A stretch of DNA of 64,000 nucleotides from Minisyncoccota bacterium (lineage in GTDB: Bacteria > Patescibacteriota > Minisyncoccia > Phycocordibacterales > UBA12088): assembly GCA_041908795.1 (NCBI GenBank), contig JAYRER010000048.1:18413-82412 (forward strand). The letters run 5' to 3'. Shown piece by piece: positions 1,867 through 63,721 of this stretch. A program made the position numbers and the translations under genes. The notes under the pieces are model-generated. The model worked only from the letters and a program-made list of their open reading frames with translations. It was not told the DNA's origin and did no database searches. Numbering within the stretch: the stretch's first letter is position 1; every line of letters starts with the position of its first letter.

Positions 1867-1951
1867 GCACGTGGGAGTTCAACTCCCACGTGAGACAAGT
1901 CGTCTATGTTAGCCTCACCCCATTTCGGCTTCTGATCCCGATTTTCAATTT

Positions 1952-2041: not shown

Positions 2042-2461
2042 GTTTGTTTTAGTCTACACGTTGTACCAACTTCTTGAATGCTTGACCACCCTTGAATCGT
2101 TTTATTCTCTGTTCCTCCGCACGCGCCTGTGCAAGTGTAGCAAACTCTGCGCGTCATAACAGAGTCCAAGTACGCCCACGCGTCGTGCGAGTTGCTATAC
2201 CCGCATTGTGACGAAGAATGCGCACCTCGAGATCCACAGTGGAACCCACATAGTGCCTTCCGTCTTCAGACTCTAGAATGTACACCCATGCCATACCCTA
2301 ACCTCGTCGGCAGCTCGCCCCGCCTTGGCGGGGTGCGCGCTTAGGCCACCAAGCACAACCCTCCAATGTGACGCATGGTAGCGCATCTCTGCGCACACCA
2401 CAACACGACACACTCCTCGCCACCGATCGCCACCATAGCGCAATGGTGCTAAAGTACACCT

Positions 2462-2776
2462 ATGACCAAGAACCCCTACATCAACGCACTTGTTGCGATA
2501 GTGTACATCATCCTTGTCGCTCTCGTGCTCTACGGCACACCTCACATAGTCGGAGGTAAGGATAATTTCCTCATGCCCGTTGTTGCAGTGTCTCTCTTCA
2601 CCCTCTCCGCCGCACTCATGGGGTACCTTTTTCTCTACACCCCCATGCTGCTTCTTCTTGATGGTAAAAAAGTTGAGGGAACACGTCTCTTCCTCAAAAC
2701 CGTAGCGGTGTTTGCGGGCTGTACGGCCGTTGTGTTTGGTGCCATGGTCATACTCTCGCGGCTCATGGGAGCGTAG
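2462..2776 (+). CDS. Small hydrophobic membrane protein (about 3 TM), unknown function
   Basis: 104 aa ORF with clear TM-like hydrophobic stretches. There is no strong SD. Confidence 0.4.
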   Translation: MTKNPYINALVAIVYIILVALVLYGTPHIVGGKDNFLMPVVAVSLFTLSAALMGYLFLYTPMLLLLDGKKVEGTRLFLKTVAVFAGCTAVVFGAMVILSRLMGA

Positions 2777-2780
2777 AAAG

Positions 2781-2804
2781 AATTACGTAATCGATTACGT
2801 AATT
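2781..2804. repeat. Perfect 24-bp palindrome AATTACGTAATC|GATTACGTAATT (copy 1), with two TTACGTAA cores
   Basis: Read directly. It lies 5 nt after the stop of the 2462-2776 ORF and about 58 nt upstream of the channel gene start. A near-identical copy lies at 9867-9890. Confidence 0.7.
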
Positions 2805-2861
2805 CACAACAGCGTGACTCTTTGCTTCATCGCTACCGCCCTCCATGCTACCTTAGACGGT

Positions 2862-3638
2862 ATGCGGAGACATCATAGAACGTGGCCACTCGAACACACC
2901 CTGCGCGATTGTTTCTACAACATCCACTCGCCGTACTTTCACTTGATCAATGACACCCTTGCGGCCATAACCACACTCGCGACACTTGCGGTCATACTTG
3001 AAACGGTACCCTCGCTTACGGACTACCACCCATACTTTCGCGTCGTTGAGACAATTGCGGTTGCGGTATTTACCCTCGAGTATCTCGCCCGCATCGTCGC
3101 TCGCAGGCGCGATGTGGGTGCGTATGTGTTGAGCCTCTTTGGTATTATCGACCTCCTCGCAATCATTCCCTCACTCTTCGGAATATCGAACCTCACATGG
3201 CTCAAGACGGCGCGTGTACTTCGTATTCTGCGGCTCCTGCGACTTGTCCGTGTTGCGCACGCGCGCGATGCCGCACGCAGGCACCATCGCAAGGACCCCG
3301 ACGAGCACGAGACGCTCTTCCGCCTCGCAATCGCGATATACTTCGCGAGTCTCCTCATTTCTATCACCATTTTTGGGACACTTATCTATGTGGCCGAGGG
3401 TGGCGTGAGCGAGTTTGGCTCGATTCCGCTCGGTATGGTGTGGGCCGCCAAAGTAACGATGGGTGGGGTAGCACAGCACATGCCGCAGACGGCATGGGGC
3501 GACCTCATTACCATCGGTGCTCGCTTCACCGGCCTTGCGCTTTTCGGTCTCATGCTCTCCCTCATCGGAAGCTCCATGCGGTCTATCCTGTTTGGGACCC
3601 CCACACTTGATGGTGTGGTACAGCGTCGGCGTCCGTGA
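2862..3638 (+). CDS. Voltage-sensor (6TM) ion-transport family channel with a degenerate K+ selectivity filter
   Basis: S4-like RVLRILRLLRLVRV. The pore region FGSIPLGMVWAAKVTMGGVAQHMP aligns to the K-channel FxSIPxAFWWAVVTMTTVGYGDMxP but lacks GYG. Start moved from the track's 2712 to the in-frame ATG at 2862, since 2712 overlaps the upstream ORF. Confidence 0.65.
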   Translation: MRRHHRTWPLEHTLRDCFYNIHSPYFHLINDTLAAITTLATLAVILETVPSLTDYHPYFRVVETIAVAVFTLEYLARIVARRRDVGAYVLSLFGIIDLLAIIPSLFGISNLTWLKTARVLRILRLLRLVRVAHARDAARRHHRKDPDEHETLFRLAIAIYFASLLISITIFGTLIYVAEGGVSEFGSIPLGMVWAAKVTMGGVAQHMPQTAWGDLITIGARFTGLALFGLMLSLIGSSMRSILFGTPTLDGVVQRRRP

Positions 3639-3675
3639 GGTTGCGTAGAGCTACAGGTGCGGGTACCATAGAGTC

Positions 3676-4008
3676 ATGCGATACGTCCTTCTCATTATTG
3701 CACTGTGTGCGCTCGGGGTTGGCGGGTACTACCTTGCACGCGAGCGGGGCTTCCTGGGGTCCACCCTCCCCTACAACCCTCCCACCGCAGAAGACCTCCG
3801 ACGACTGGAAGAAATACAGCGCTCAAGCGCAACCATTGCTCCTGATGCCAATCCCGGTGCCAGTGTGCGCCCACCCGGCTCACTCCCGCGCCCCATCGAA
3901 GCAACCACCACAGCGGCAACAAGCTCTCCTGATGTGACTTCTACAACATCAAGCGATGTGGAAGGCGAAACACCAAGTGATTTGAACTCCGCGGAAGAGG
4001 TCGAATAA
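3676..4008 (+). CDS. Hypothetical membrane-anchored protein with a low-complexity Pro/Thr/Ser-rich tail
   Basis: 110 aa. An N-terminal TM helix (LLIIALCALGVGGYY) is followed by a PT-rich segment. Confidence 0.4.
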   Translation: MRYVLLIIALCALGVGGYYLARERGFLGSTLPYNPPTAEDLRRLEEIQRSSATIAPDANPGASVRPPGSLPRPIEATTTAATSSPDVTSTTSSDVEGETPSDLNSAEEVE

Positions 4009-4027
4009 CCTCTGAATACAAACTCAT

Positions 4028-5599
4028 TCACTTGTACATCCTTCGTACGTACTCGAGCATCGCGGCGGTATCGGCTGTGGGATCAGGTGAATCAAGTGCA
4101 ACGAAGAGCACAGGTCGGTTAACTCCCCCAAAAGTGAGTGAGAAAATGCTCACCATATCTTTCTCGTGAACATCGCCAACAGTTGCACTTGATGTCGCGA
4201 ATGCGAGGAGTACCGCTGCGGGAACACGATGCTGTTCCGTATGTTGCTCGAACAATGCCACACGCTCACCACTCGTTGACGTTTCGCTCGCAATGCCCCC
4301 CAAAAAACCGGTCGTGCTGGCAAAACGATGCGTGGGCTCCATGGTCTCCCACACCGGCTTGCCATACCACGCCGTGTTGAGAGTACCTGCGGTGAGTGAG
4401 AGTACGAATGGGCGATTGTTGTAGAGGTAACGCGCGAGCACATAAAAATCCTCCGCAGTTGTCTCGTTGCCCTTCATACTACCTGTAGGCTCCGCAAATG
4501 TCGTGCTATGCATGCCGAGCGCACGCGCCTTACCGTTCATTAACTCTACGAACCTGTCGCGTCCAAACGACGCCGCTATCGCTTCCGCAGCCGCATCGCT
4601 GTTCTCAAGGAGGAGCGGGAAGAGGAGGTCGTAGAGACTGTACGTTGCGCCCGAGGTAAAGCGCATGTGGGTGCTCGTACTCACCGTCTCCGGGCCCGCA
4701 ATGCGCCCCTCAATGTTTTTATACTCACTCGCAACGAGCGCCCCCATGAGTTTCGCGGCAAGGGTCGCGTGGTGCTTCGCCTCCGACTCATTGGTGAGAA
4801 GTATGAAGCCGTTTTTCAAATCAGCCACAAGGTAGCTCTGCGCCGCAATGTCAGGCGCGTTCAAACGATAACGGTAGTTGTCGTGCGAAAAATCGTCCTC
4901 GTATACGAGTATCGGCATCCCCACATCCGTAAGCTCGTAGACCGCTTTTGCGTAGCTGTCTTCGAGGCGGATACACCCGCCCGAGTAGGTGGACGCGACA
5001 GGTGTGCCGTCGGGGTACGTGGGCCACCCGTGAATGAAGAAATTTCCCTGAAAGGGAATGCTCCACGGCATGTTCACCTGCCCGAAACTTGAGAAGTGGT
5101 TTTTTGCCTTACTCTCCGCCTTGTAGAGCCCCGCGGGAGTCTCCCACCAGCTTCCCTCCTTCCCTTTGCTCTTGATGGGCACCGACGTTGCCATTTCGCC
5201 GTTGCGGTACACGGAAAGGTTCATGGTGGAGAGGTTCGCGACTATGAAGTTTGCACCTTCGCTCTTGAGTTTGTGTTCCACATCGGAGAAAAATGTCACG
5301 TTGGAAAGCGCGGGCCACGCACCCTCAACAAGCTCCGTGGTACTAGCCGTTCCGGGCACAGAAACCGAGTAGGTGTAGAGGGGCTGTTTGGGCACCGAGT
5401 ATCCGGCGAATGCCGCGAGGGACAGGGCACATGTTGCCGCCACAAACGAGATGACGAGTGTGTACGTGCGACGCACACGCCCATCGGGTTGCTGTGCAGT
5501 GTCCGCAGATGCGAGGGAGGGAGACGAACCGTCGTCGTATGGCGGCTCATGGTACGGCACGGTCTCTCCCTGTCTCGTACGTCCGAACATGCCCATCAT
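4028..5599 (-). CDS. L,D-transpeptidase (YkuD) domain protein fused to a C-terminal D-Ala-D-Ala carboxypeptidase (S11/PBP5)-like domain, possibly degenerate
   Basis: YkuD catalytic motif HGWPTYPDGTPVASTYSGGCIRL. PBP5-like SxN region LLLENSDAAAEAIA. The canonical SxxK and KTG motifs are not evident. Start set at MMGMFGR (5599) so it does not overlap the upstream PduO gene. An N-terminal TM anchor is present. Confidence 0.7.
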   Translation of the reverse strand: MMGMFGRTRQGETVPYHEPPYDDGSSPSLASADTAQQPDGRVRRTYTLVISFVAATCALSLAAFAGYSVPKQPLYTYSVSVPGTASTTELVEGAWPALSNVTFFSDVEHKLKSEGANFIVANLSTMNLSVYRNGEMATSVPIKSKGKEGSWWETPAGLYKAESKAKNHFSSFGQVNMPWSIPFQGNFFIHGWPTYPDGTPVASTYSGGCIRLEDSYAKAVYELTDVGMPILVYEDDFSHDNYRYRLNAPDIAAQSYLVADLKNGFILLTNESEAKHHATLAAKLMGALVASEYKNIEGRIAGPETVSTSTHMRFTSGATYSLYDLLFPLLLENSDAAAEAIAASFGRDRFVELMNGKARALGMHSTTFAEPTGSMKGNETTAEDFYVLARYLYNNRPFVLSLTAGTLNTAWYGKPVWETMEPTHRFASTTGFLGGIASETSTSGERVALFEQHTEQHRVPAAVLLAFATSSATVGDVHEKDMVSIFSLTFGGVNRPVLFVALDSPDPTADTAAMLEYVRRMYK

Positions 5600-5600
5600 A

Positions 5601-6167
5601 CTAGCGATACGTGGGGGTCGTTTCAGCAACCCCGTCCATGTGGTTGGCGTAGCGAGCAAGCGCAAAAAGGAGCGAGGAGAGGCGGTTGAGGTACGCGAGT
5701 GTGGGAGAAGACACATCGCGAATACCCGACTCATGCACGCCCACCACCCTCCGCTCCGCTCGCCTCGCAAGGGTGCGTGCCACATCAAAGAGCGCGGAAA
5801 GGTAGGTCCCGCCCGGTATGGAAAAGCCGGTCAGTTTTGGAAAAAGTGTTTCAAGCGTATCCGTCACACGCTCAAGCGACTGCACCTTCCGTGGGGTAAT
5901 GTGCTTGTCCGCTCCCGCCACTTCCGCTTGTATAATGAAAAGGTTCTCCTGCACCTCACGCACCACATCTTCAAGTGTCACCCCTTTTTTGGTGACGGGG
6001 ATACGCACACTTCCACGTTCCCTGATATCCGCCCTCGCAAGGCCAAGATAGCTGTTGAGCTCGTCGAGGGTACCAAGCGCCTCGGGAAGCGCAGAACTCT
6101 TTGAGATGCGCTCGCTTGAGTTGAGTGTCTTGGTAGTGCCACTATCCCCTTTTCGTGTGTAGAGCAT
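5601..6167 (-). CDS. ATP:cob(I)alamin adenosyltransferase, PduO-type/MMAB family
   Basis: MLYTRKGDSGTTKTL...LGTLDELNSYLGLARA matches the PduO N-terminal signature YTKTGDKGxTSL...DELNSxLG. Confidence 0.7.
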   Translation of the reverse strand: MLYTRKGDSGTTKTLNSSERISKSSALPEALGTLDELNSYLGLARADIRERGSVRIPVTKKGVTLEDVVREVQENLFIIQAEVAGADKHITPRKVQSLERVTDTLETLFPKLTGFSIPGGTYLSALFDVARTLARRAERRVVGVHESGIRDVSSPTLAYLNRLSSLLFALARYANHMDGVAETTPTYR

Positions 6168-6409
6168 ACCTCAAGTATACCAAATGGTGCCCGTCGTGCG
6201 CATCCTCCCTTCATGGTTCCTTTACATACACTGTGGTCCAATAGGAAAAGAACGATGACGCACCGGGGAGGCTGTGAGGAAGCATAAAAAGTGAGAAACC
6301 GCGTGCGCTGTTCTTTTAGTCGCGCTCGCACATGGGCGTGGACCAATGACATGTCAAACGACTAACGCCGGCGGGCTACTTCACTGGAAGTTGCTCGCCG
6401 GCGTGTTTC

Positions 6410-6583
6410 TCATCCTCTTTCTTCGCCCTGAAATGGTCCTCTCTCCGGGGCTTCGTAGTTTGAGCCGCCCCGCTGCTCATGGAGGCCATACGCAGTCCAC
6501 ACGGCAATCGGGTCAGTTTCATCAAACACAACTCCTGTGCCAAGCTCAGCTGTGCGCGTTCGTGAGACACTGTCACGTTTCAT
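6410..6583 (-). CDS. Small hypothetical protein (57 aa)
   Basis: On the mRNA, ATG is preceded by a strong SD: GGAAGGAGAATCGGCATGAAACG (AAGGAG, 7-nt spacer). Protein MKRDSVSRTRTAELGTGVVFDETDPIAVWTAYGLHEQRGGSNYEAPERGPFQGEERG. Same strand as the PduO and Ldt genes. Confidence 0.4.
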   Translation of the reverse strand: MKRDSVSRTRTAELGTGVVFDETDPIAVWTAYGLHEQRGGSNYEAPERGPFQGEERG

Positions 6584-6785
6584 GCCGATTCTCCTTCCAT
6601 CACAAAACGAAGTAACAACGAAGCACAATACGTGCGGCTACCGACCAGAAAAAAGCATGCGAACAAATCAGCAACATACACAGTGTGCCCATGCTTCCCA
6701 CTGGTTACGATTTTGTCACACGAGAATCATTTGATATCCCTTTGTTTATTTTGAAATCCTAAAATCTAATACCACACACCATCAT

Positions 6786-9005
6786 GTGACGTCAATGAGC
6801 ACACTCCTCACGTGCTATACTCACCCCATGTCGGAACCTATAGTTAACGCACACATTGCCCCCCACACCCACACAGAACAGTACTTCCGCCTCCAAGAAC
6901 AGCAGAAACGGGCGCTGAACCGCCTCGGCATTCGCACCCTCGCCGACCTCCTCTACCACTTCCCCACCCGCTATGAAGCGGCGGGTGACGAGCGCACCAT
7001 TGCGGGTATCGAAGCGAACGCCGATGTCGTCCTTTTCGGCACCGTACGCAAGCCCGCAACGCGCAAAACATGGAAAAGCAAGGTGCCCATCGCAGAGGCA
7101 TGGCTTGAGGACGGCACCGGAAAGCTCAAGCTCATGTGGTTCAACCAGCCGTACATTGCCAAACTTTTGGAGGATGGGGCCACGGTCCGTGTTGCGGGAA
7201 AGGTGGTCGGTACAACAAGTAAGTACCTCGCGAACCCTGAAATTGAGCGCGTGTCCGAGCTTCCCCCGCAGGAGGATTCAATTTTTTCAACGGGAGAGAG
7301 GGCGGAGGGTGCCGAGCTCTTTGCGGTGTACCCGGAATCGTTCGGCATCACCTCCCGGTGGTTTCGCCACGCGATAGCGAAACTCCTCAATGAAAAATTG
7401 CACACCACACTACGGGACCCCATTGATGGAGCAATCCTTGCGCGCTACCACCTACCGACACTTGAGAGCGCGCTCGTATGGGTACACCAACCAAAAGAGA
7501 GTAAGAATGCGCAAGCGGCGAGAAAACGCTTTGCGTTTGAAGAGGTGTTTCTGATACAGGTGGCGAAACAGCAAGCACGCCACGAGAACGACCTTCAGCC
7601 CACTATTCCGATACCCGACGGCGCTGAACGTTCCCGTGCATTTATCGCCCGCTTGCCGTTTACCCTCACAGAAGGCCAGGAGCATGCGGTGGCCTCAATC
7701 CTCACAGACATGGCACATCCTCCCGCGATGAGCCGGCTCCTTGAGGGCGATGTGGGAAGCGGAAAGACCGCCGTTGCCGCCGCAACAGCATACGCTGTTG
7801 TCACAAGCTCCCCGAGCGGACGACCCTCGGCCACGCTTCAGGTGGCGTACATGGCCCCGACTGAAATTCTCGCGGAACAGCACTTTGCATCCTTCATTGA
7901 ACTTTTCAAACACCTCCCGATACAGGTGGGACTTATCACGAGCACCGCATGTAAAAAGTTTCCCTCAAAGGTCAGTCCGTCGAGTGCAACAAAGGTGAGC
8001 AAAGCGCAATTCTTGAAGTGGGTTCAGAACGGCGAGATTTCCATCATCATCGGCACCCATGCGCTCGTTCAGAAGAATGTTCGCTTTCGAGACCTCGCCT
8101 ACGTCATCATCGATGAACAGCACCGCTTTGGCACCGCCCAGCGCCAAGCGCTCGTGCGGAAGGACAACGTGGTGCCCCACCTCCTCTCGATGACCGCCAC
8201 CCCTATTCCTCGCACGCTCGCACTCACGCTCTACGGCGACCTTGACCTCACGGTACTCGATGAAATGCCGCCCGGACGAAAGCCCGTCATCACGGAGGTG
8301 GTCGCGAAAAGCGGGCGCGACCGCATGTACGACGCGGTGCGCCGCGAGCTCGACCGCGGGAAGCAGGTCTACGTGATATGCCCCCGCATCGAAGACCCCG
8401 ACCCACGGAAAGTCGCCGCAATACAGGCGAAGAGTGTGCGCTCGGAAGCGGCACGCTTGCGCATGAAGGAGCTCAAGGGGTACCGCATCGGTATCCTGCA
8501 CGGGCAGATGAAGCCGATCGAAAAAGATGAGGCGATGCGCGCATTCCTCACACACGAAACCGATGTGCTCGTGGCAACTTCGGTCGTTGAGGTGGGAGTG
8601 AACGTACCGAACGCAACGGTCATTGTGATAGAGGGGGCGGAACGCTTCGGTCTCGCCCAGCTCCACCAGCTCCGTGGGCGCGTGGTGCGTTCCACCGAGC
8701 AGGCGTACTGCTACGTACTCACCAGTGAAGGTGATGTAACGGGCCGCCTTCGAGCGCTCGCACGCGCGAAGAACGGCTTTGAGCTCGCCGAGCTCGACCT
8801 CAAGATTCGCGGGCCCGGGGAGCTCTACGGAAGGAGCCAGTCGGGCCTCTCCGACCTCGGCATGGAGGCGCTCAAAAACTTAAAAATGGTTGAAGCGGCT
8901 CGGATCGAAGCGGAGCGCATTGCGCGCGAAGACCCTGCGCTTGTGATGCACCCCATGTTGCGCGACGCCATCGCCTCACGCCGCGACCGTCTGCATTTTG
9001 AGTAG
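6786..9005 (+). CDS. recG: ATP-dependent DNA helicase RecG
   Basis: 739 aa. Helicase motifs GDVGSGKT and DEQHRFG, with a C-terminal RecG fold. Alternative ATG starts at 6795 and 6828. The track start is GTG. Confidence 0.9.
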   Translation: MTSMSTLLTCYTHPMSEPIVNAHIAPHTHTEQYFRLQEQQKRALNRLGIRTLADLLYHFPTRYEAAGDERTIAGIEANADVVLFGTVRKPATRKTWKSKVPIAEAWLEDGTGKLKLMWFNQPYIAKLLEDGATVRVAGKVVGTTSKYLANPEIERVSELPPQEDSIFSTGERAEGAELFAVYPESFGITSRWFRHAIAKLLNEKLHTTLRDPIDGAILARYHLPTLESALVWVHQPKESKNAQAARKRFAFEEVFLIQVAKQQARHENDLQPTIPIPDGAERSRAFIARLPFTLTEGQEHAVASILTDMAHPPAMSRLLEGDVGSGKTAVAAATAYAVVTSSPSGRPSATLQVAYMAPTEILAEQHFASFIELFKHLPIQVGLITSTACKKFPSKVSPSSATKVSKAQFLKWVQNGEISIIIGTHALVQKNVRFRDLAYVIIDEQHRFGTAQRQALVRKDNVVPHLLSMTATPIPRTLALTLYGDLDLTVLDEMPPGRKPVITEVVAKSGRDRMYDAVRRELDRGKQVYVICPRIEDPDPRKVAAIQAKSVRSEAARLRMKELKGYRIGILHGQMKPIEKDEAMRAFLTHETDVLVATSVVEVGVNVPNATVIVIEGAERFGLAQLHQLRGRVVRSTEQAYCYVLTSEGDVTGRLRALARAKNGFELAELDLKIRGPGELYGRSQSGLSDLGMEALKNLKMVEAARIEAERIAREDPALVMHPMLRDAIASRRDRLHFE

Positions 9006-9073
9006 CGAACCCGTGAGGGCTACGTGTGAGGTACTATTGGTACACTACCTTTCACTCGTTGCACAGGTAGTAT

Positions 9074-9724
9074 ATGTATCCAACCATGCACACTATACGA
9101 GAACGATGGGGCACGTTAGTCGGGCTTTCCGTTGTTGTGGCGCTCTTCCTTGTCGCGTCCGTGCTCACACGCATGTATGGAGAAATGCTTAGCGAGCTCA
9201 TGCAAGGTCACGAGTATGCGGGGATGTTTCTCTACGTTACCGTTACCATCGTTGCGGTGGTGCTCGCACCGTTCTCAACCATACCCCTGCTCCCGGTCGC
9301 CGTTACGTTGTGGGGACCTTTTCTTACCGCCCTACTCTCGATACTCGGTTGGACCATTGGTGCCGGGGTGGCATTTCTCGTTGCGCGCAGGTGGGGCACA
9401 CGACTGGTACGGAAGATCGTTTCAATCGAACGCATCGCACGCCTCGAACGCATGGTCACGACGCACCACCCGTTCCTCACCATTACCCTCCTTCGCATGG
9501 CGGTGCCGGTTGACATTCTCTCGTACGCTCTCGGTCTATTTTCCAAGGTCAGTTTTCGAACGTACCTTGCCGCAACACTTGTGGGCGTGACACCGTTTGC
9601 GTTCGTGTTTGCGTATGTCGGAACACTCACCCTCACCAGACAACTCCTCATCCTTCTCTGCGTCGGGCTCGCGCTCGTGTTCATACACATTCAAGAACCC
9701 TTGGCAAAACCCCCAAGTTCTTAA
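9074..9724 (+). CDS. TVP38/TMEM64 (DedA/SNARE-associated) family membrane protein
   Basis: 216 aa polytopic membrane protein with a DedA-like core. Confidence 0.6.
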   Translation: MYPTMHTIRERWGTLVGLSVVVALFLVASVLTRMYGEMLSELMQGHEYAGMFLYVTVTIVAVVLAPFSTIPLLPVAVTLWGPFLTALLSILGWTIGAGVAFLVARRWGTRLVRKIVSIERIARLERMVTTHHPFLTITLLRMAVPVDILSYALGLFSKVSFRTYLAATLVGVTPFAFVFAYVGTLTLTRQLLILLCVGLALVFIHIQEPLAKPPSS

Positions 9725-9734
9725 AGTGTCAAAA

Positions 9735-9770
9735 CATTCGTTTAGAACGCTATAGCGTTCTAAACGAATG
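9735..9770. terminator. Perfect 16-bp-stem hairpin (cattcgtttagaacgc-tata-gcgttctaaacgaatg), likely a bidirectional terminator between convergent genes
   Basis: Read directly. TTTT follows the hairpin on the minus strand and an A-rich tract follows on the plus strand. It sits 10 nt after the TVP38 stop. Confidence 0.55.
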
Positions 9771-9866
9771 ACTGCCAATAAAACAAAATAACAGTGAAGC
9801 TGTTGCTGAGATATAGGGATAGTATATGCCTCAAAATACGACCAATGCGTGCAAAGTTGTGTATAA

Positions 9867-9890
9867 AATTACGTAATCGTTTACGTAATT
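9867..9890. repeat. 24-bp palindrome copy 2 (AATTACGTAATCGTTTACGTAATT, 1 mismatch to copy 1)
   Basis: Read directly. It is flanked by T-rich tracts on both strands, in the convergent intergenic region 9725-9925. Confidence 0.7.
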
Positions 9891-9925
9891 CTTTTGTGCT
9901 ATCTTCGCGCGTACCACGCAGTCAT

Positions 9926-10308
9926 TAGAGTATGTTGAGGGCGCCTTCGAGGAGCGAGCGCATCACCGTGGCATCACCTGCGGGAATGAGCGAGCCCTTG
10001 CGATACTCAACGGTTCCGATGATGGTTTTGAGTACCGCGCGTGCGGCGACGAGGTTGCCCTTCCCTCCCTTCTTGATGAGCCCCTCGGCGACGAGGACAC
10101 GGCCGTTGATCCACGCGGCAAGTCAGTGGGGAATATCCGCACTCTTGGTGTACGCGTGCAGGAGTGCGAGGTAGTCGAGCGTGGTCTGCTCCTCCCCACC
10201 CCTACTCGTGGTGTCGACCATGCCGTCGCCATCGAAGTCGAGCTCGATAAAGGGCACACTGTCTTGAACTTTCGCGACACTTAAAACGAACCGTTGTTGA
10301 AAAACCAT
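9926..10308 (-). pseudogene. Hypothetical protein gene interrupted by an in-frame TGA at about 10123-10125. Possible pseudogene, sequencing error or recoding
   Basis: Manual translation of the minus strand: MVFQQRFVLSVAKVQDSVPFIELDFDGDGMVDTTSRGGEEQTTLDYLALLHAYTKSADIPH-TGA-LAAWINGRVLVAEGLIKKGGKGNLVAARAVLKTIIGTVEYRKGSLIPAGDATVMRSLLEGALNIL-TAA. The protein-like frame continues 65 codons past the stop. Confidence 0.4.
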
Positions 10309-19892: not shown

Positions 19893-20188
19893 GGAGTGAC
19901 CTTGTTCCTTTTGTGCTTTTTAAGTATTTCTCGTGCCCGACGGAACACCGTATCACTCGAAACAGTCTTACCTTGCTCTATTGCGGCGTCACCCACTGCA
20001 ATCGCGGTTTGAAGCGCAATAAGCTCTTGCTGACGAAACAACTCCTCCATCTCAAGTTTGCGCAGTGACTCACGGACCACCTCGCTCGCAGAGATGTAGC
20101 GGCCGGATTTTACCTGGTCGCGAATAAACTTCTCCTGTTCCTTGGTAAGTGAAATGTTAGCCATACACCAATGGTACCGGTATAACAA
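19889..20188 (-). CDS. parD: Type II antitoxin, ParD family (COG3609-like)
   Basis: MANISLTKEQEKFIRDQVKSGRYISASEVVRESLRKLE matches the ParD/CC2985 antitoxin N-terminus. Likely start at 20164. Confidence 0.65.
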   Translation of the reverse strand: MLYRYHWCMANISLTKEQEKFIRDQVKSGRYISASEVVRESLRKLEMEELFRQQELIALQTAIAVGDAAIEQGKTVSSDTVFRRAREILKKHKRNKVTP

Positions 20189-20194
20189 AAATTG

Positions 20195-21382
20195 TCAATT
20201 TTTGTTATACGCCTCGTTTTGCCCGGATAGCATTTCCATCACCCCATTGTACTCCGAGAGACGCCCTGCGACGTACATGCGGGCTCGCGCAACACGCTCG
20301 GCAATTGTGGGGTGAGCGGTGCGGATGCGGTCGAGCTCTCGGTCAAGTGCTTCAATGCCGTTCTCTTCACCCCACACGAAGGCACGCTCACCCTTTTCCC
20401 CGGCACTCTCGAGGAGCCCCTCCGCACGGCTCACGATACAAGGTGTCCCCACGTACATGGCCTCGAGTGGCACCATGCCGAGCGACTCACTGCGCGAGAA
20501 AAGCAGGAAGACATCGGCGTCAACGTAGTACCGCCAGAGCTCATGGTGAGGCACGGTGCCCGCAAAACGTACGTGGTCGGCGACACCGAGCGTGACTGCG
20601 AGCACTTCGAGACGGTCGCGGAGAATGCCGTCGCCCGCTATGACGAGTGTCGCCTCTTTGAGGGCGAGAGCGGCAAACGCCGTGAGCAAGCGGTCGAACC
20701 CTTTTTCAGGTTCAAGCCGGCCGACCGAGAGGAGCATGAGGTGCCCGTCGGGAACGGCAAGCGCGGCCCGCACCGAGCCCTTGTGCTCGCGGGCGGTCGT
20801 GAGGTCCGCGGAGTCGCGCGAGAGCGTGTCGGGGAAAAAGCGATGCGTGCGGCTCGCCGGTATGCCCACGTGTTGCGCGTAGAGCGCCGCCGCGCGGCTG
20901 TTGACGAAGCACACATCAACGCGCGGCACGGCGATGCGCTCGATCTGCGCCTCCACGAAAAGCTTGAGTCGTGCGAGGGGGCGCGTCTTGAGAAGCGTTG
21001 CGGGCAGGTTCGCCACAAACAGCACGACGCGCGCACCCGTCTCTTTGCGCACTCGTGCGGCCGCGGGCACCAAGCTCATGTCGTAGGTCACAACCGCGTC
21101 CGGCACGTACCCCCGCGCACGCAAGAGTGCGGGTAAACGAAGCATCATGACAAGTGCATAGAACGGGCGAAGGTGTCTGAAGCGAGCACGCAGGTGCACC
21201 GTTTCGAAGTGGTCGTCCACCCTGAGGTAGTAGTGCTCTGGCCCGAAGGACACGAGGAACATGTCGCACTCGGCAAGGCGTATGCCATCGCGCTCGAACT
21301 TGGTCCGCATCTCGGGCACGTTGGTTTTGGCGAGGTTGCGCCAATCGAAACTGAGGCAAACGAGTCGAGGTCGGGTGGTCAT
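20195..21382 (-). CDS. Glycosyltransferase family 4 (GT-B)
   Basis: LEAMYVGTPCIVSRAEG. GT4 domain. Start trimmed to ATG (MTTRPRLV). Confidence 0.8.
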   Translation of the reverse strand: MTTRPRLVCLSFDWRNLAKTNVPEMRTKFERDGIRLAECDMFLVSFGPEHYYLRVDDHFETVHLRARFRHLRPFYALVMMLRLPALLRARGYVPDAVVTYDMSLVPAAARVRKETGARVVLFVANLPATLLKTRPLARLKLFVEAQIERIAVPRVDVCFVNSRAAALYAQHVGIPASRTHRFFPDTLSRDSADLTTAREHKGSVRAALAVPDGHLMLLSVGRLEPEKGFDRLLTAFAALALKEATLVIAGDGILRDRLEVLAVTLGVADHVRFAGTVPHHELWRYYVDADVFLLFSRSESLGMVPLEAMYVGTPCIVSRAEGLLESAGEKGERAFVWGEENGIEALDRELDRIRTAHPTIAERVARARMYVAGRLSEYNGVMEMLSGQNEAYNKN

Positions 21383-34271: not shown

Positions 34272-35225
34272 CTACACCTTGTGATACTCACGATACCAGC
34301 GCACGAAATTCTTCACCCCCTCTTCCACGCGCACTCTCGGCTCGAAGCCGAGAGTGCGCCGAGCCTTTGAAATATCCGCATAGGTTTCGAGTACGTCGCC
34401 TGGCTGAAGTGGCTTTTCTATGACGTTCGCTTTCTTCCCAATCTCTCGCTCTATAATTCGTACAAATTCTCGCAGATGCACCGGTGACCCGGTACCCAAA
34501 TTAAATATTTCAAATCCCTGAGGTCGCACATCGAGCGCTCGCATAAACCCCTCAACAATATCTTCAACGTACGTGAAATCTCGCTTCATGTCTCCACTGT
34601 TGTAAAGCTCAATCGACTCACCGGAAAGCATCGCTTTTGTAAACTTAAACAGTGCCATATCTGGGCGCCCCCATGGTCCGTAGACACTAAAGAAACGGAG
34701 CATCGTGATGTTCATGCCAAACAGGTCCTTGTATGAAAACGAGAGAAGTTCCACAGCTCGCTTTGATGCGGCATATATTGACATAGGGGTATCCACACGT
34801 GTCTCCTCAGAAAAGGGCATCTCAAGGTTTTTTCCATACACTGAGCTCGTTGAAGCCATTACAATGTGTGGTGTCTTATACCATCGAGCAAGCTCCAAAA
34901 TATTGAGCGAACCCACATAATTACTGGAGGCGTACACGAATGGGTTTTCCAACGAGTACCGCACACCGGCTTGAGCGGCGAGATGAGCAACCGCGTCAAA
35001 CGGACCATACTGTACCCACACTCGTTCAAGGCTAGCTCGATCGCTTATATCGACACATTCAAAGTGCGCGTCGGGTACTATCCTTTGCACTCGAGCCAGC
35101 TTCAACTGTGGGTCATAGTAGCCGTTGAGGTTATCTACGACGACCACACGATGACCCTCGCGTAGGAGACGTAGCGCAAGGGTATTGCCGATGAAGCCGG
35201 CACCTCCGGTAACAAGTAGTTTCAT
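34272..35225 (-). CDS. NAD-dependent epimerase (UDP-glucuronate 4-epimerase/CapI-like)
   Basis: LLVTGGAGFIGN, YAASK, YGPWGRPDMA (typical GAE/CapI motif). Confidence 0.8.
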   Translation of the reverse strand: MKLLVTGGAGFIGNTLALRLLREGHRVVVVDNLNGYYDPQLKLARVQRIVPDAHFECVDISDRASLERVWVQYGPFDAVAHLAAQAGVRYSLENPFVYASSNYVGSLNILELARWYKTPHIVMASTSSVYGKNLEMPFSEETRVDTPMSIYAASKRAVELLSFSYKDLFGMNITMLRFFSVYGPWGRPDMALFKFTKAMLSGESIELYNSGDMKRDFTYVEDIVEGFMRALDVRPQGFEIFNLGTGSPVHLREFVRIIEREIGKKANVIEKPLQPGDVLETYADISKARRTLGFEPRVRVEEGVKNFVRWYREYHKV

Positions 35226-49671: not shown

Positions 49672-49742
49672 GCACCAACATGGTCTTGCTTCCAACCAAC
49701 AACCGCCCTTTCGGGCGGTTGTTCTGTTGTATTCTTTTGTCC

Positions 49743-63659: not shown

Positions 63660-63721
63660 GCTGCTCCGCAAGCTTGAAAGCACCGACGCCGGTCACCACA
63701 ACGTGGTGACCGGCGCTTCCG

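What the first reader, a model, noticed from the sequence alone, without database searches (positions are those of the whole stretch)
2781..9890. A perfect 24-bp palindrome (AATTACGTAATC|GATTACGTAATT) occurs twice, each time just downstream of a gene
Copy 1 is at 2781-2804, 5 nt after the stop of a small membrane-protein ORF and 58 nt upstream of the channel gene. Copy 2 is at 9867-9890, with one mismatch, between convergent genes next to another perfect 16-bp-stem hairpin (9735-9770). Each copy holds two TTACGTAA cores that are themselves palindromic. This could be a dimeric transcription-factor operator, a REP-like bidirectional terminator element, or a tiny dispersed repeat. Two identical 24-mers 7 kb apart in a small genome is unlikely by chance.
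Basis: seen in the sequence. Interest (0 to 1): 0.5.

Follow-up and report, generated by a model that had tools for sequence, protein, structure and literature searches.

The report
Binding-site arrays for a small AbrB-like protein
The two 24-bp palindromes are real, and each is a pair of 12-bp units (AATTACGTAATT) matching the sequence that sits at the promoter of a conserved 58-residue AbrB-type DNA-binding protein across Patescibacteria, so they are most likely protein docking sites placed at gene ends, from a regulator-site pair I found no description of.

Summary
The 24-mer lies at 2781-2804 (perfect) and 9867-9890 (one mismatch), with 0 expected by chance.

Each copy is two head-to-tail 12-bp palindromic units, AATTACGTAATT. 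A scan of public genomes found at least 120 stretches with such arrays of 2-5 units. They are mostly intergenic and mostly in Patescibacteria (CPR) assemblies, often several per genome.

The only recurrent neighbour is a 58-aa SpoVT/AbrB-fold protein, with the array 10-63 bp upstream of its start. I then took 73 loci chosen by that protein alone. Of these, 38 have TTACGTAA in the 150 nt upstream, against 0.5% of control windows. The array usually lies between the -10 element and the ATG. Variant and non-palindromic arrays go with changes in a loop of the protein.

So the window copies are most likely high-affinity sites for this protein. Its gene is not in the 64-kb window, and this remains unverified. 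Such sites elsewhere lie nearer the upstream stop codon than the downstream start (35 vs 14). This fits a gene-end roadblock or insulator role, which is inferred. A plain RNA-hairpin terminator is not excluded. The closest syntenic relatives lack the motif. I found no literature on this system.

The parts
2781..2804 (.). Array copy 1: two 12-bp units (2781-2792 AATTACGTAATC, 2793-2804 GATTACGTAATT). The perfect palindrome spans 2780-2805.
   Evidence: It matches the 12-bp-period arrays found in at least 120 public stretches and the promoter arrays of the AbrB-like gene.
9867..9890 (.). Array copy 2: two 12-bp units (9867-9878 AATTACGTAATC, 9879-9890 GTTTACGTAATT). There is one mismatch outside the TTACGTAA core. 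A weak third unit may lie at 9855-9866.
   Evidence: T-rich tails follow it on both strands (TTCTTTTGT on plus, TTTTATAC on minus).
2462..2776 (+). 104-aa membrane ORF. Its stop codon lies 4 nt before copy 1. It has no Pfam match.
2862..3638 (+). Ion_trans (voltage-gated-type cation channel) gene downstream of copy 1.
   Evidence: PF00520, E = 4e-13. (homologues in Kaiserbacteria and other Patescibacteria). The ATG start is supported by L216 and L217.
2846..2854 (+). TGCTACCTT, a probable extended -10 of the channel gene, ending 7 nt before the ATG. It lies downstream of copy 1, which therefore sits upstream of the core promoter.
   Evidence: TGCTAnnnT is conserved at the same distance from the ATG in syntenic relatives L216 and L217. 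This is an inference; the consensus scan did not call it.
9074..9724 (+). VTT/DedA-family membrane protein gene, ending 142 nt before copy 2.
   Evidence: PF09335.
9735..9770 (.). Separate, unique 36-bp perfect palindrome 10 nt after the DedA stop. It is probably that gene's own end hairpin and is unrelated in sequence to the motif.
   Evidence: (-24 kcal/mol).
9925..10308 (-). Decayed remnant of the 3' end of a large LamG-lipase gene, with an in-frame TGA at 10123-10125. Copy 2 begins 34 nt after its stop.

Best explanation
Each 24-mer is a two-unit array of the 12-bp palindromic unit AATTACGTAATT. This is the recognition sequence of a roughly 58-residue stand-alone SpoVT/AbrB-fold DNA-binding protein that is widespread in Patescibacteria.

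Proposed mechanism. The protein forms the swapped-hairpin dimer typical of the fold. One dimer reads one unit through the half-sites TTAC and GTAA. Dimers on adjacent units, 12 bp apart, bind cooperatively.

At the protein's own gene the array lies between the -10 element and the start codon, so the protein would shut off its own transcription. Other copies occur about once per 30-45 kb and lie preferentially just after stop codons. The two in this window are of that kind. There the bound protein would act as a barrier (roadblock or insulator) to RNA polymerase reading out of the upstream gene. Copy 1 would separate the 104-aa ORF from the channel gene's own promoter. Copy 2 would close the end of the remnant gene in the convergent spacer.

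Shown: the sequence identity of the window copies to the conserved promoter arrays, the array-gene association, the co-variation, the AbrB fold, and the bias towards gene 3' ends.
Inferred: that this protein is the binder, that it is encoded in this genome, the one-dimer-per-unit stoichiometry, and the barrier effect.
For: 1. The motif is non-random and widespread. At least 120 stretches were found in one-genome-per-species contigs, where I would expect only a few by my uniform-composition estimate. It always appears as a 12-bp-period array: 94 with 2 units, 24 with 3, 7 with 4 and 2 with 5. Many assemblies have 2-4 loci even in this truncated list.
2. Among about 540 neighbouring ORFs, the only recurrent gene close to the motif in CPR loci is a 56-60 aa protein. 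Its start lies 10-63 bp downstream of the array in 8 loci.
3. In 73 unique loci picked by the protein alone, 38 have an exact TTACGTAA within 150 nt upstream, against 16 of 2988 control windows (Fisher p = 3e-54). Two cores 12 bp apart with at most 4 mismatches occur in 53 of 73 against 35 of 2988.
4. Geometry at the protein's own gene: TAnAAT hexamers pile up 2-22 nt before the first exact core. The last core usually ends 9-27 nt before the start codon.
5. Co-variation: proteins with the loop MGGG[RK]S or SGNGS have AATTCAGTAATT-type arrays in 8 of 9 loci, against 1 of 64 for other loops (p = 6e-9). Proteins with the loop IG[DN]KS have AAATAGGTATTT-type arrays in 5 of 6 loci (p = 5e-5). This loop aligns with the DNA-contacting loop region of AbrB.
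6. Direct, non-palindromic repeats occur in L179, L126, L145, L171 and L208. The 12-bp DNA period matters there, not a hairpin.
7. The protein matches PF04014. The AlphaFold2 model has pLDDT 77, and its top Foldseek hits are the AbrB N-domain (including the DNA-bound form), MazE, SpoVT and VapB-DNA complexes.
8. No toxin partner is conserved next to it.
9. Sites away from the protein's own gene occur about once per 32-44 kb. The window has 2 in 64 kb.
10. In co-directional spacers the sites are nearer the upstream stop than the downstream start, 35 vs 14 (p = 0.004). The ORF-start convention I used works against this result. Both window copies fit: they lie 4 and 34 nt after stops.
11. The window is from a patescibacterial genome. 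The channel's named homologues are from Kaiserbacteria, Curtissbacteria and 'Patescibacteria group'.
Against: - The protein's gene is not in the 64-kb window, and I could not reach the rest of the genome.
- The protein-selected loci have at most 47% G+C, whereas the window has about 53%. Presence of the protein in this lineage is therefore assumed.
- The closest syntenic relatives of the channel locus (60-62% identity, L216 and L217) and more distant ones (L129-L131) have no motif. The window sites are thus not positionally conserved.
- In pattern-selected loci the sites away from the protein's own gene show no -10 element next to them. Neighbouring genes have no common function, so there is no classical regulon.
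- About 18% of sites (21 of 115) have palindromy extending at least 6 nt beyond the cores, often as A-run/T-run pairs. That looks like RNA hairpin terminators.
- A MarR-GNAT protein is paired with the same sequence in non-CPR genomes, so the motif alone does not identify the binder.
- The co-variation is not corrected for shared ancestry.
- A test of whether variant-operator genomes use the same variant at their other sites had too little sequence to decide.
Confidence: 0.62

Rival explanations
1. The palindromes act at the RNA level as gene-end hairpins, that is, intrinsic or bidirectional terminators or 3'-end stabilisers. Any resemblance to the AbrB-like operator is secondary.
For: - Both copies fold as RNA, at -10 to -13.6 kcal/mol.
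- Copy 2 has T-rich tails on both strands.
- Both copies lie just after stop codons, as do other unique perfect palindromes in the window: 1868-1892, 9735-9770, 49698-49723 and 63687-63715.
- The syntenic relative L216 has an ordinary small terminator hairpin at the place of copy 1.
- Related sites are closer to upstream stops. Convergent spacers are mildly over-represented, 17 vs 7 divergent (not significant, p = 0.13).
- 21 of 115 sites have extended palindromy, often A-run plus T-run.
Against: - Ordinary terminators are not sequence-conserved, yet this stem is the same in many lineages.
- The stems have only 2 G-C pairs, and the terminator scan calls neither copy.
- T-richness of the flanks does not follow gene direction.
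- The same arrays lie between the -10 and the ATG of one particular gene in more than half of its loci.
- Direct-repeat versions that cannot form a hairpin occupy the same place.
- Sites also occur in divergent spacers at the background rate.
Confidence: 0.17
2. The copies are operators for a different regulator, for example a MarR-type or otherwise unidentified factor. The AbrB-like gene would then be just one of its targets.
For: - In non-CPR genomes a MarR-GNAT fusion gene sits 3-24 nt from TTACGTAA-N4-TTACGTAA (L044, L049, L061, L082, L095). Another family can therefore be paired with this sequence.
- The AbrB-like gene was not found in the window.
Against: - No MarR-GNAT homologue is in the window or in the CPR loci.
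- The operator variant tracks a loop of the AbrB-like protein itself.
- No other recurrent neighbour was found in CPR loci.
Confidence: 0.1
3. The copies are a small dispersed or mobile repeat (REP/BIME-like, DNA-uptake-sequence-like), or a recent local duplication without function.
For: - The two copies share the same unusual unit junction (TCGA / TCGT). Most other genomes use TTAA. This could reflect copying within the genome.
Against: - There are only 2 copies in 64 kb, against hundreds to thousands per genome for REP elements or uptake sequences.
- The flanks share no similarity.
- The element recurs in many different lineages instead of being species-specific.
- The sequence is nearly absent from viral contigs: 4 hits, none next to the protein.
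Confidence: 0.04

Closest known systems
AbrB / Abh / SpoVT transition-state regulators of Bacillus (N-terminal swapped-hairpin DNA-binding domain, PF04014)
   Same: Same fold and Pfam family. The CPR protein is 35% identical to the AbrB N-domain over about 47 residues, and the PIE motif and basic residues are conserved. Both autoregulate. AbrB likewise binds many chromosomal sites.
   Different: AbrB has a C-terminal multimerisation domain and binds as a tetramer to loosely defined targets without a crisp consensus (my knowledge). The CPR protein is the bare 58-aa domain with a basic N-terminal tail and a 4-residue longer loop. It is paired with a sharply defined 12-bp palindrome in tandem arrays.
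MazE / VapB-type (AbrB-fold) antitoxins autoregulating toxin-antitoxin operons
   Same: Small AbrB-fold proteins that bind palindromic operators overlapping their own promoters. These are the top structural matches. Some sources annotate the CPR protein as 'MazE antitoxin'.
   Different: No toxin gene is conserved next to the CPR protein. It lacks the C-terminal toxin-binding tail. Its sites are also scattered at other loci.
MetJ and its tandem 8-bp metboxes (AGACGTCT, 2-5 copies)
   Same: It works alike. A small beta-strand-reading dimer binds one short palindromic box with an ACGT centre, boxes are repeated head to tail 2-5 times, and binding along the array is cooperative (my knowledge).
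   Different: Different fold (ribbon-helix-helix), 8-bp rather than 12-bp period, a defined methionine regulon and a corepressor. This is not a membership claim.
MraZ (a double AbrB-like domain protein binding direct repeats upstream of the dcw cluster)
   Same: AbrB-superfamily protein that reads short repeats at a fixed period of about 10-12 bp and represses its own operon (my knowledge).
   Different: MraZ is a 150-aa two-domain protein that forms dodecamers. It recognises GTG-type direct repeats at a single locus.
Protein-roadblock terminators (mTERF proteins in organelles, Reb1/TTF-I at rDNA)
   Same: If the barrier reading is right, this is a sequence-specific DNA-bound protein at gene ends that stops RNA polymerase (mTERF6: PMC6085346; the rest is my knowledge).
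   Different: Unrelated protein folds, and they act in organelles or the nucleus. No dedicated dispersed roadblock-terminator system is established in bacteria. The effect is untested here.
Sso7c4 / C68 / C56-type small archaeal AbrB-like DNA-binding proteins
   Same: Stand-alone AbrB-fold proteins of about 55 aa. They appear as weaker structural matches.
   Different: They are reported as general or plasmid/virus DNA binders (my knowledge). No conserved tandem palindrome code is known for them.

Membership tests
SpoVT/AbrB (PF04014) DNA-binding domain, for the proposed binder | Sequence match to the family profile above its curated cut-off | tested here: met
   two of four members score 26.3 and 28.3 bits against a cut-off of 24.7; the other two fall below it; many homologues carry a precomputed PF04014 hit.
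SpoVT/AbrB (PF04014) DNA-binding domain, for the proposed binder | Beta-alpha-beta swapped-hairpin fold | tested here: met
   model pLDDT 77, with strands E14-17, E21-24, helix H28-34, strands E42-47, E50-55; the top 11 Foldseek hits are all AbrB-N, MazE or SpoVT, six of them with probability 0.99-1.0 (range 0.84-1.0). E-values are weak because the domain is tiny, and the model is a monomer only.
SpoVT/AbrB (PF04014) DNA-binding domain, for the proposed binder | Dimer formation and direct DNA contact | not testable with these tools
   Needs biochemistry or a complex model. Only the co-variation between the loop and the operator supports it.
Autoregulated repressor-operator pair | Site lies in the promoter or leader of the regulator's own gene, in independent genomes | tested here: met
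   38 of 73 loci have an exact core and 53 of 73 a relaxed match, against at most 1.2% of controls. The array lies between the -10 and the ATG.
Autoregulated repressor-operator pair | Cognate regulator encoded in the same genome as the window sites | not testable with these tools
   It is absent from the 64-kb window. The rest of the genome could not be fetched.
Classical operator controlling an adjacent promoter (window copies) | Site overlaps or abuts a promoter of a neighbouring gene | tested here: not met
   No promoter was called at either copy. The probable channel promoter lies about 40 nt downstream of copy 1. Copy 2 lies in a spacer with no outward-facing gene. Sites in pattern-selected loci show no -10 enrichment.
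Intrinsic (Rho-independent) terminator | G+C-rich stem-loop followed by a U-tract on the transcribed strand | tested here: not met
   call neither copy. The stems have 2 G-C pairs. Copy 1 has no T-run on the plus strand. Copy 2 has T-rich tails on both strands. Flank T-richness does not follow gene direction.
REP/BIME-type repetitive extragenic palindromes | High copy number within one genome, species-specific sequence, linked RAYT transposase | tested here: not met
   There are 2 copies in 64 kb. The same sequence occurs in many lineages. RAYT in the full genome was not examined.
DNA uptake sequences (DUS/USS) | Density of about one per kb, including inside genes | tested here: not met
   There are four TTACGTAA cores in 64 kb, all intergenic.
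LexA/SOS boxes of Bacteroidota or Patescibacteria | Match to the described LexA motifs and location upstream of SOS genes | tested here: not met
   PMC8565304 reports GGA-N5-TCC, CTAA-N5-TTAG and TTAC-N5-GTAA, none with a 12-bp tandem TTACGTAA. Neighbouring genes are not SOS genes.

The most novel reading that the evidence does not exclude
Patescibacteria mark gene boundaries with a dedicated, sequence-specific protein barrier. A 58-aa AbrB-like protein bound to AATTACGTAATT arrays just after stop codons stops or insulates transcription. This would be a bacterial counterpart of mTERF/Reb1 roadblock termination. The same protein throttles its own gene through an array placed after its own -10 element. 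The recognition code would be kept nearly unchanged in many lineages of the group.
Probability: 0.25. Interest if true: 0.8.

Novelty: new member of a known kind. Interest (0 to 1): 0.6.

Why it matters
Almost nothing is known about gene regulation in Patescibacteria, which are small-genome, mostly uncultured bacteria with very few recognisable regulators.

This analysis gives a concrete protein-DNA pair that can be tested. It comprises a 58-aa protein family (3448 sequence clusters), a crisp 12-bp code, predicted specificity-determining loop residues, and about 30 predicted sites per megabase. The pair could be checked directly by gel shift, DAP-seq, or RNA 3'-end mapping in cultivable Saccharibacteria.

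If the gene-end bias reflects a protein roadblock, that would be an unusual way for bacteria to end or insulate transcription. For genome annotation, the arrays are a ready marker of intergenic boundaries. They also argue against labelling this protein a 'MazE antitoxin'.

Tried and rejected
- LexA/SOS box: the published Bacteroidota motifs differ and the neighbours are not SOS genes.
- Literature: searches for the motif (TTACGTAA with 'bacteria' and 'operator'; ATTACGTAAT on its own) returned no relevant paper (eukaryotic bZIP papers and incidental sequence matches). Searches pairing AbrB or SpoVT with Patescibacteria, CPR or Saccharibacteria found nothing.
- Rfam: no family at either copy.
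- A conserved large neighbour gene or regulon: clustering of about 540 flanking ORFs gave only housekeeping genes of all kinds.
- Channel-specific operator: channel orthologues at 52-62% identity lack the motif. The first metagenome scan with the channel protein found nothing.
- -10 elements next to sites in pattern-selected loci: no enrichment.
- T-run asymmetry following gene direction: none.
- Within-genome test (do genomes with variant operators use the same variant at their other sites?): only 33-57 kb per group, 0-1 sites, so uninformative.
- Phage origin: 4 viral hits, none with the protein.
- MarR-GNAT as the binder in the window: no homologue there.
- Retrieving the rest of the source genome to look for the AbrB-like gene: only 1.7-2.9 kb Logan contigs of run SRR26835459 were retrievable.
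- Homologues of the 127-aa ORF next to copy 2: none for the whole ORF. Only its C-terminal 65 aa match the ends of large proteins.

Full report
**1. Observation**

The 24-mer AATTACGTAATCGATTACGTAATT is at 2781-2804 as a perfect palindrome (26 bp counting 2780 and 2805). It recurs at 9867-9890 with one change, T for A at 9880. Allowing 3 mismatches, the window has exactly these two matches against 0.00 in shuffles. All four TTACGTAA octamers of the 64 kb lie inside them, against 0.7 expected. A relaxed scan for two cores 12 bp apart finds nothing else above shuffle level. The flanks of the two copies are unrelated, so the repeat is just the 24-26 bp.

**2. Context in the window**

Copy 1 starts 4 nt after the stop of a 104-aa membrane ORF (2462-2776). 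It ends 57 nt before the ATG (2862) of an Ion_trans channel gene. A public gene call starts the channel at GTG 2814. Two syntenic relatives begin at the equivalent ATG and share a TGCTAnnnT element ending 7 nt before it (window 2846-2854). I read this as the channel's own promoter, lying downstream of copy 1.

Copy 2 lies in the spacer after a VTT/DedA gene (9074-9724). That gene has its own unique 36-bp palindrome at 9735-9770.

The minus-strand 'gene' on the other side (9925-10308) carries an in-frame TGA and has no homologues as a whole. Its last 65 residues match the C-termini of 819-940 aa LamG-lipase proteins. It is therefore a decayed remnant of a large gene, and copy 2 begins 34 nt after its stop.

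Consensus scans call no promoter or intrinsic terminator at either copy. Rfam finds nothing. The channel's named homologues are from Kaiserbacteria, Curtissbacteria and 'Patescibacteria group', so the window comes from a patescibacterial (CPR) genome of about 53% G+C.

**3. The motif elsewhere**

I scanned one genome per species (GTDB) for ATTACGTAAT-N3-TTACGTAAT. My uniform-composition estimate is about 4, and more in A+T-rich DNA. About half of the records are named as CPR lineages (Moraniibacteriota, Saccharibacteria, Parcubacteria, Doudnabacteria and others). The rest are mostly unnamed or oddly named MAGs, plus a few isolates in which the hit lies in a gene and looks like chance.

Many assemblies contribute 2-4 loci even in this truncated list. 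The element is always a head-to-tail array of a 12-bp unit with consensus AATTACGTAATT: 94 arrays of two units, 24 of three, 7 of four and 2 of five. The window's version differs only at the unit junction (TC|GA instead of TT|AA).

Sites are mostly intergenic and occur in all three spacer types: 56 co-directional, 17 convergent and 7 divergent. The background is 574, 94 and 80, and the convergent excess is not significant (p = 0.13).

**4. A candidate binder**

Clustering about 540 ORFs within 2 kb of the sites gave no conserved large neighbour. The neighbours are ribosomal proteins, tRNA synthetases, MiaA, PolA, Ddl, glycosyltransferases and so on.

The exception in CPR loci is a 56-60 aa protein (MARRK..NIRKLTK.G.KS.GLTLPIE.VREL.W.E.QKV...DWKK). 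By tblastn it is present in 8 loci, each time with the array 10-63 bp upstream of its start. In one locus an array lies on both sides.

It matches PF04014 (SpoVT/AbrB, 'MazE_antitoxin'). An AlphaFold2 model (pLDDT 77) has the expected strand-helix-strand order. Its top structural matches are the AbrB N-domain (including the DNA-bound form), MazE, SpoVT and VapB-DNA complexes. The family is large: 3448 clusters at 90% identity, almost all 57-60 aa, annotated only as hypothetical or 'MazE antitoxin'. No toxin gene is conserved next to it. What follows is variable, often defence genes and then dnaE.

**5. Test on loci chosen by the protein alone**

I fetched loci chosen only by this protein: three by exact look-up and 80 from a metagenome scan. 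After removing duplicates, 73 upstream regions remained.

| Feature within 150 nt upstream | Protein loci | Control windows, same loci | Fisher p |
|---|---|---|---|
| Exact TTACGTAA | 38 of 73 | 16 of 2988 | 3e-54 |
| Two cores 12 bp apart, at most 2 mismatches | 38 of 73 | 10 of 2988 | 1e-57 |
| Two cores 12 bp apart, at most 4 mismatches | 53 of 73 | 35 of 2988 | 2e-73 |

By eye, most of the remaining loci carry recognisably related 12-bp-period arrays.

The arrays typically begin 2-5 nt after a -10 hexamer such as TAGAAT or TATAAT, or one degenerate unit later. They typically end 9-27 nt before the start codon. That position fits repression of the protein's own gene.

**6. Co-variation, and why this is a DNA-level element**

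Some lineages use other units. The unit goes with the loop between the first two strands of the protein.

| Loop of the protein | Array unit | Loci with that unit | Other loops | p |
|---|---|---|---|---|
| MGGG[RK]S or SGNGS | AATTCAGTAATT | 8 of 9 | 1 of 64 | 6e-9 |
| IG[DN]KS | AAATAGGTATTT | 5 of 6 | 4 of 67 | 5e-5 |

This loop aligns with the DNA-contacting loop region of AbrB. The counts are not corrected for shared ancestry.

Several arrays are direct repeats of non-palindromic units (L179, L126, L145, L171, L208). They cannot form a hairpin but keep the 12-bp period. Together these points argue that the array is read as double-stranded DNA by this protein, one unit per dimer. The stoichiometry is an inference from the fold.

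**7. What the sites away from the protein's own gene do**

Canonical arrays away from that gene occur about once per 32-44 kb in the protein-selected loci. The window has 2 in 64 kb.

In pattern-selected loci these sites show no adjacent -10 elements and no common functional class of neighbours. A classical regulon is therefore unlikely.

They are, however, positioned. In co-directional spacers they lie closer to the upstream stop than to the downstream start, 35 to 14 (p = 0.004). This holds although my ORF starts were pushed as far upstream as possible, which works against the result. Fifteen of 56 lie within 12 nt of the stop.

About 18% (21 of 115) have palindromy extending at least 6 nt beyond the cores, often as A-run/T-run pairs. 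T-richness does not follow gene direction.

In the window, both copies follow stop codons (4 and 34 nt). Other gene ends in the window carry unique perfect palindromes. The syntenic relative L216 has an ordinary small terminator hairpin where the window has copy 1.

My reading is that these are gene-end sites where the bound protein blocks or insulates read-through. The same act at the protein's own leader would give autorepression. In some sites the hairpin may add to the effect. This step is inferred.

**8. Weak points**

- The protein's gene is not in the window, and I could not obtain the rest of the genome. Only short Logan contigs of run SRR26835459 were retrievable.
- The protein-selected loci reach only 47% G+C.
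- The window sites are not conserved in the closest relatives.
- In non-CPR genomes a MarR-GNAT fusion gene sits next to the same TTACGTAA-N4-TTACGTAA sequence. The motif alone therefore does not name the binder, although no such gene is in the window or in the CPR loci.
- Arrays also occur in MAGs labelled Bacteroidales or Rikenellaceae, whose neighbouring proteins look Bacteroidota-like. Either the system reaches beyond CPR or another protein reads the arrays there.

**9. Comparison with known systems, and novelty**

The binder belongs to the SpoVT/AbrB superfamily, with profile and fold both met. It behaves like an autoregulated AbrB/MazE-type repressor, but it is a bare domain without a toxin partner.

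The array logic (a short ACGT-centred palindrome repeated 2-5 times) works like MetJ metboxes, and the fixed-period reading resembles MraZ. Neither is a membership claim.

The copies fail the tests for intrinsic terminators, REP elements, uptake sequences and the described LexA boxes.

I found no paper linking this motif or an AbrB-type protein to Patescibacteria in the searchable library.

I rate it a new member of a known kind (regulator plus operator), with an unusual breadth of conservation and an unusual gene-end placement. Interest is 0.6. The most novel reading still open is a dedicated protein-roadblock system marking gene ends. I give it a probability of about 0.25.

Noticed in passing
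window 9925-10308 (minus strand): This ORF has an in-frame TGA at 10123-10125. Its last 65 aa match the C-termini of 819-940 aa LamG plus LCAT-like lipase proteins, and the rest has no homologues. It is most likely a decayed stump of a large gene.
   Followed up: yes
window 1868-1892, 9735-9770, 20180-20210, 34329-34359, 49698-49723, 63687-63715: Six further perfect palindromes of 25-36 bp, each unique in sequence. At least four lie 1-27 nt after a stop codon and lack clear T-runs. This genome seems to end genes with perfect hairpins. The 36-bp one at 9735-9770 is the longest.
   Followed up: partly
L044 4907-4926, L049 2526-2545, L061 522-541, L082 602-621, L095 6743-6762: In non-CPR genomes (Dawidia cretensis, plus MAGs labelled Ignavibacteriaceae, Akkermansia, Pseudomonadales and SAR324), a MarR-GNAT fusion gene of about 315 aa starts 3-24 nt from a TTACGTAA-N4-TTACGTAA site. 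A second, unrelated regulator family appears paired with the same sequence.
   Followed up: partly
L125 10279-14847; L126 10281-13110; L012 3254-4843; L026 2079-5480: The AbrB-like gene is often followed by defence-type genes (NYN, EcoRI-type methylase, CD-NTase plus Cap15, GmrSD, DpnI, type I RM subunit, C5 methylase) and then dnaE. It may border a variable defence island.
   Followed up: no
window 2846-2864; L216 about 150-178; L217 about 275-304: TGCTAnnnT is conserved, ending 7 nt before the ATG of the channel gene. This looks like an extended -10 giving a leaderless or near-leaderless mRNA. It also shows that the public GTG 2814 start is probably too early.
   Followed up: partly
L133 and L138 (same contig Ga0208694_1000069, about 60 kb apart): Two paralogues of the AbrB-like protein lie on one contig, each with its own variant of the upstream array. 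The family may diversify within genomes.
   Followed up: no
L004, L009, L024, L029, L035, L050, L062, L068, L104: MAGs labelled Bacteroidales or Rikenellaceae carry 2-4-unit arrays at several loci each, next to proteins with Bacteroidota-like signal peptides. MAGs labelled 'Bdellovibrionales' (L026, L060, L077) carry the AbrB-like gene. Either the labels are unreliable or the system extends beyond CPR.
   Followed up: no
window 2154-2294 (minus strand), next to tRNA-Ser 1952-2041: A 46-aa ORF (MAWVYILESEDGRHYVGSTVDLEVRILRHNAG...) resembles the N-terminus of GIY-YIG nucleases. This is from memory and was not tested. It may be another gene fragment beside the tRNA.
   Followed up: no
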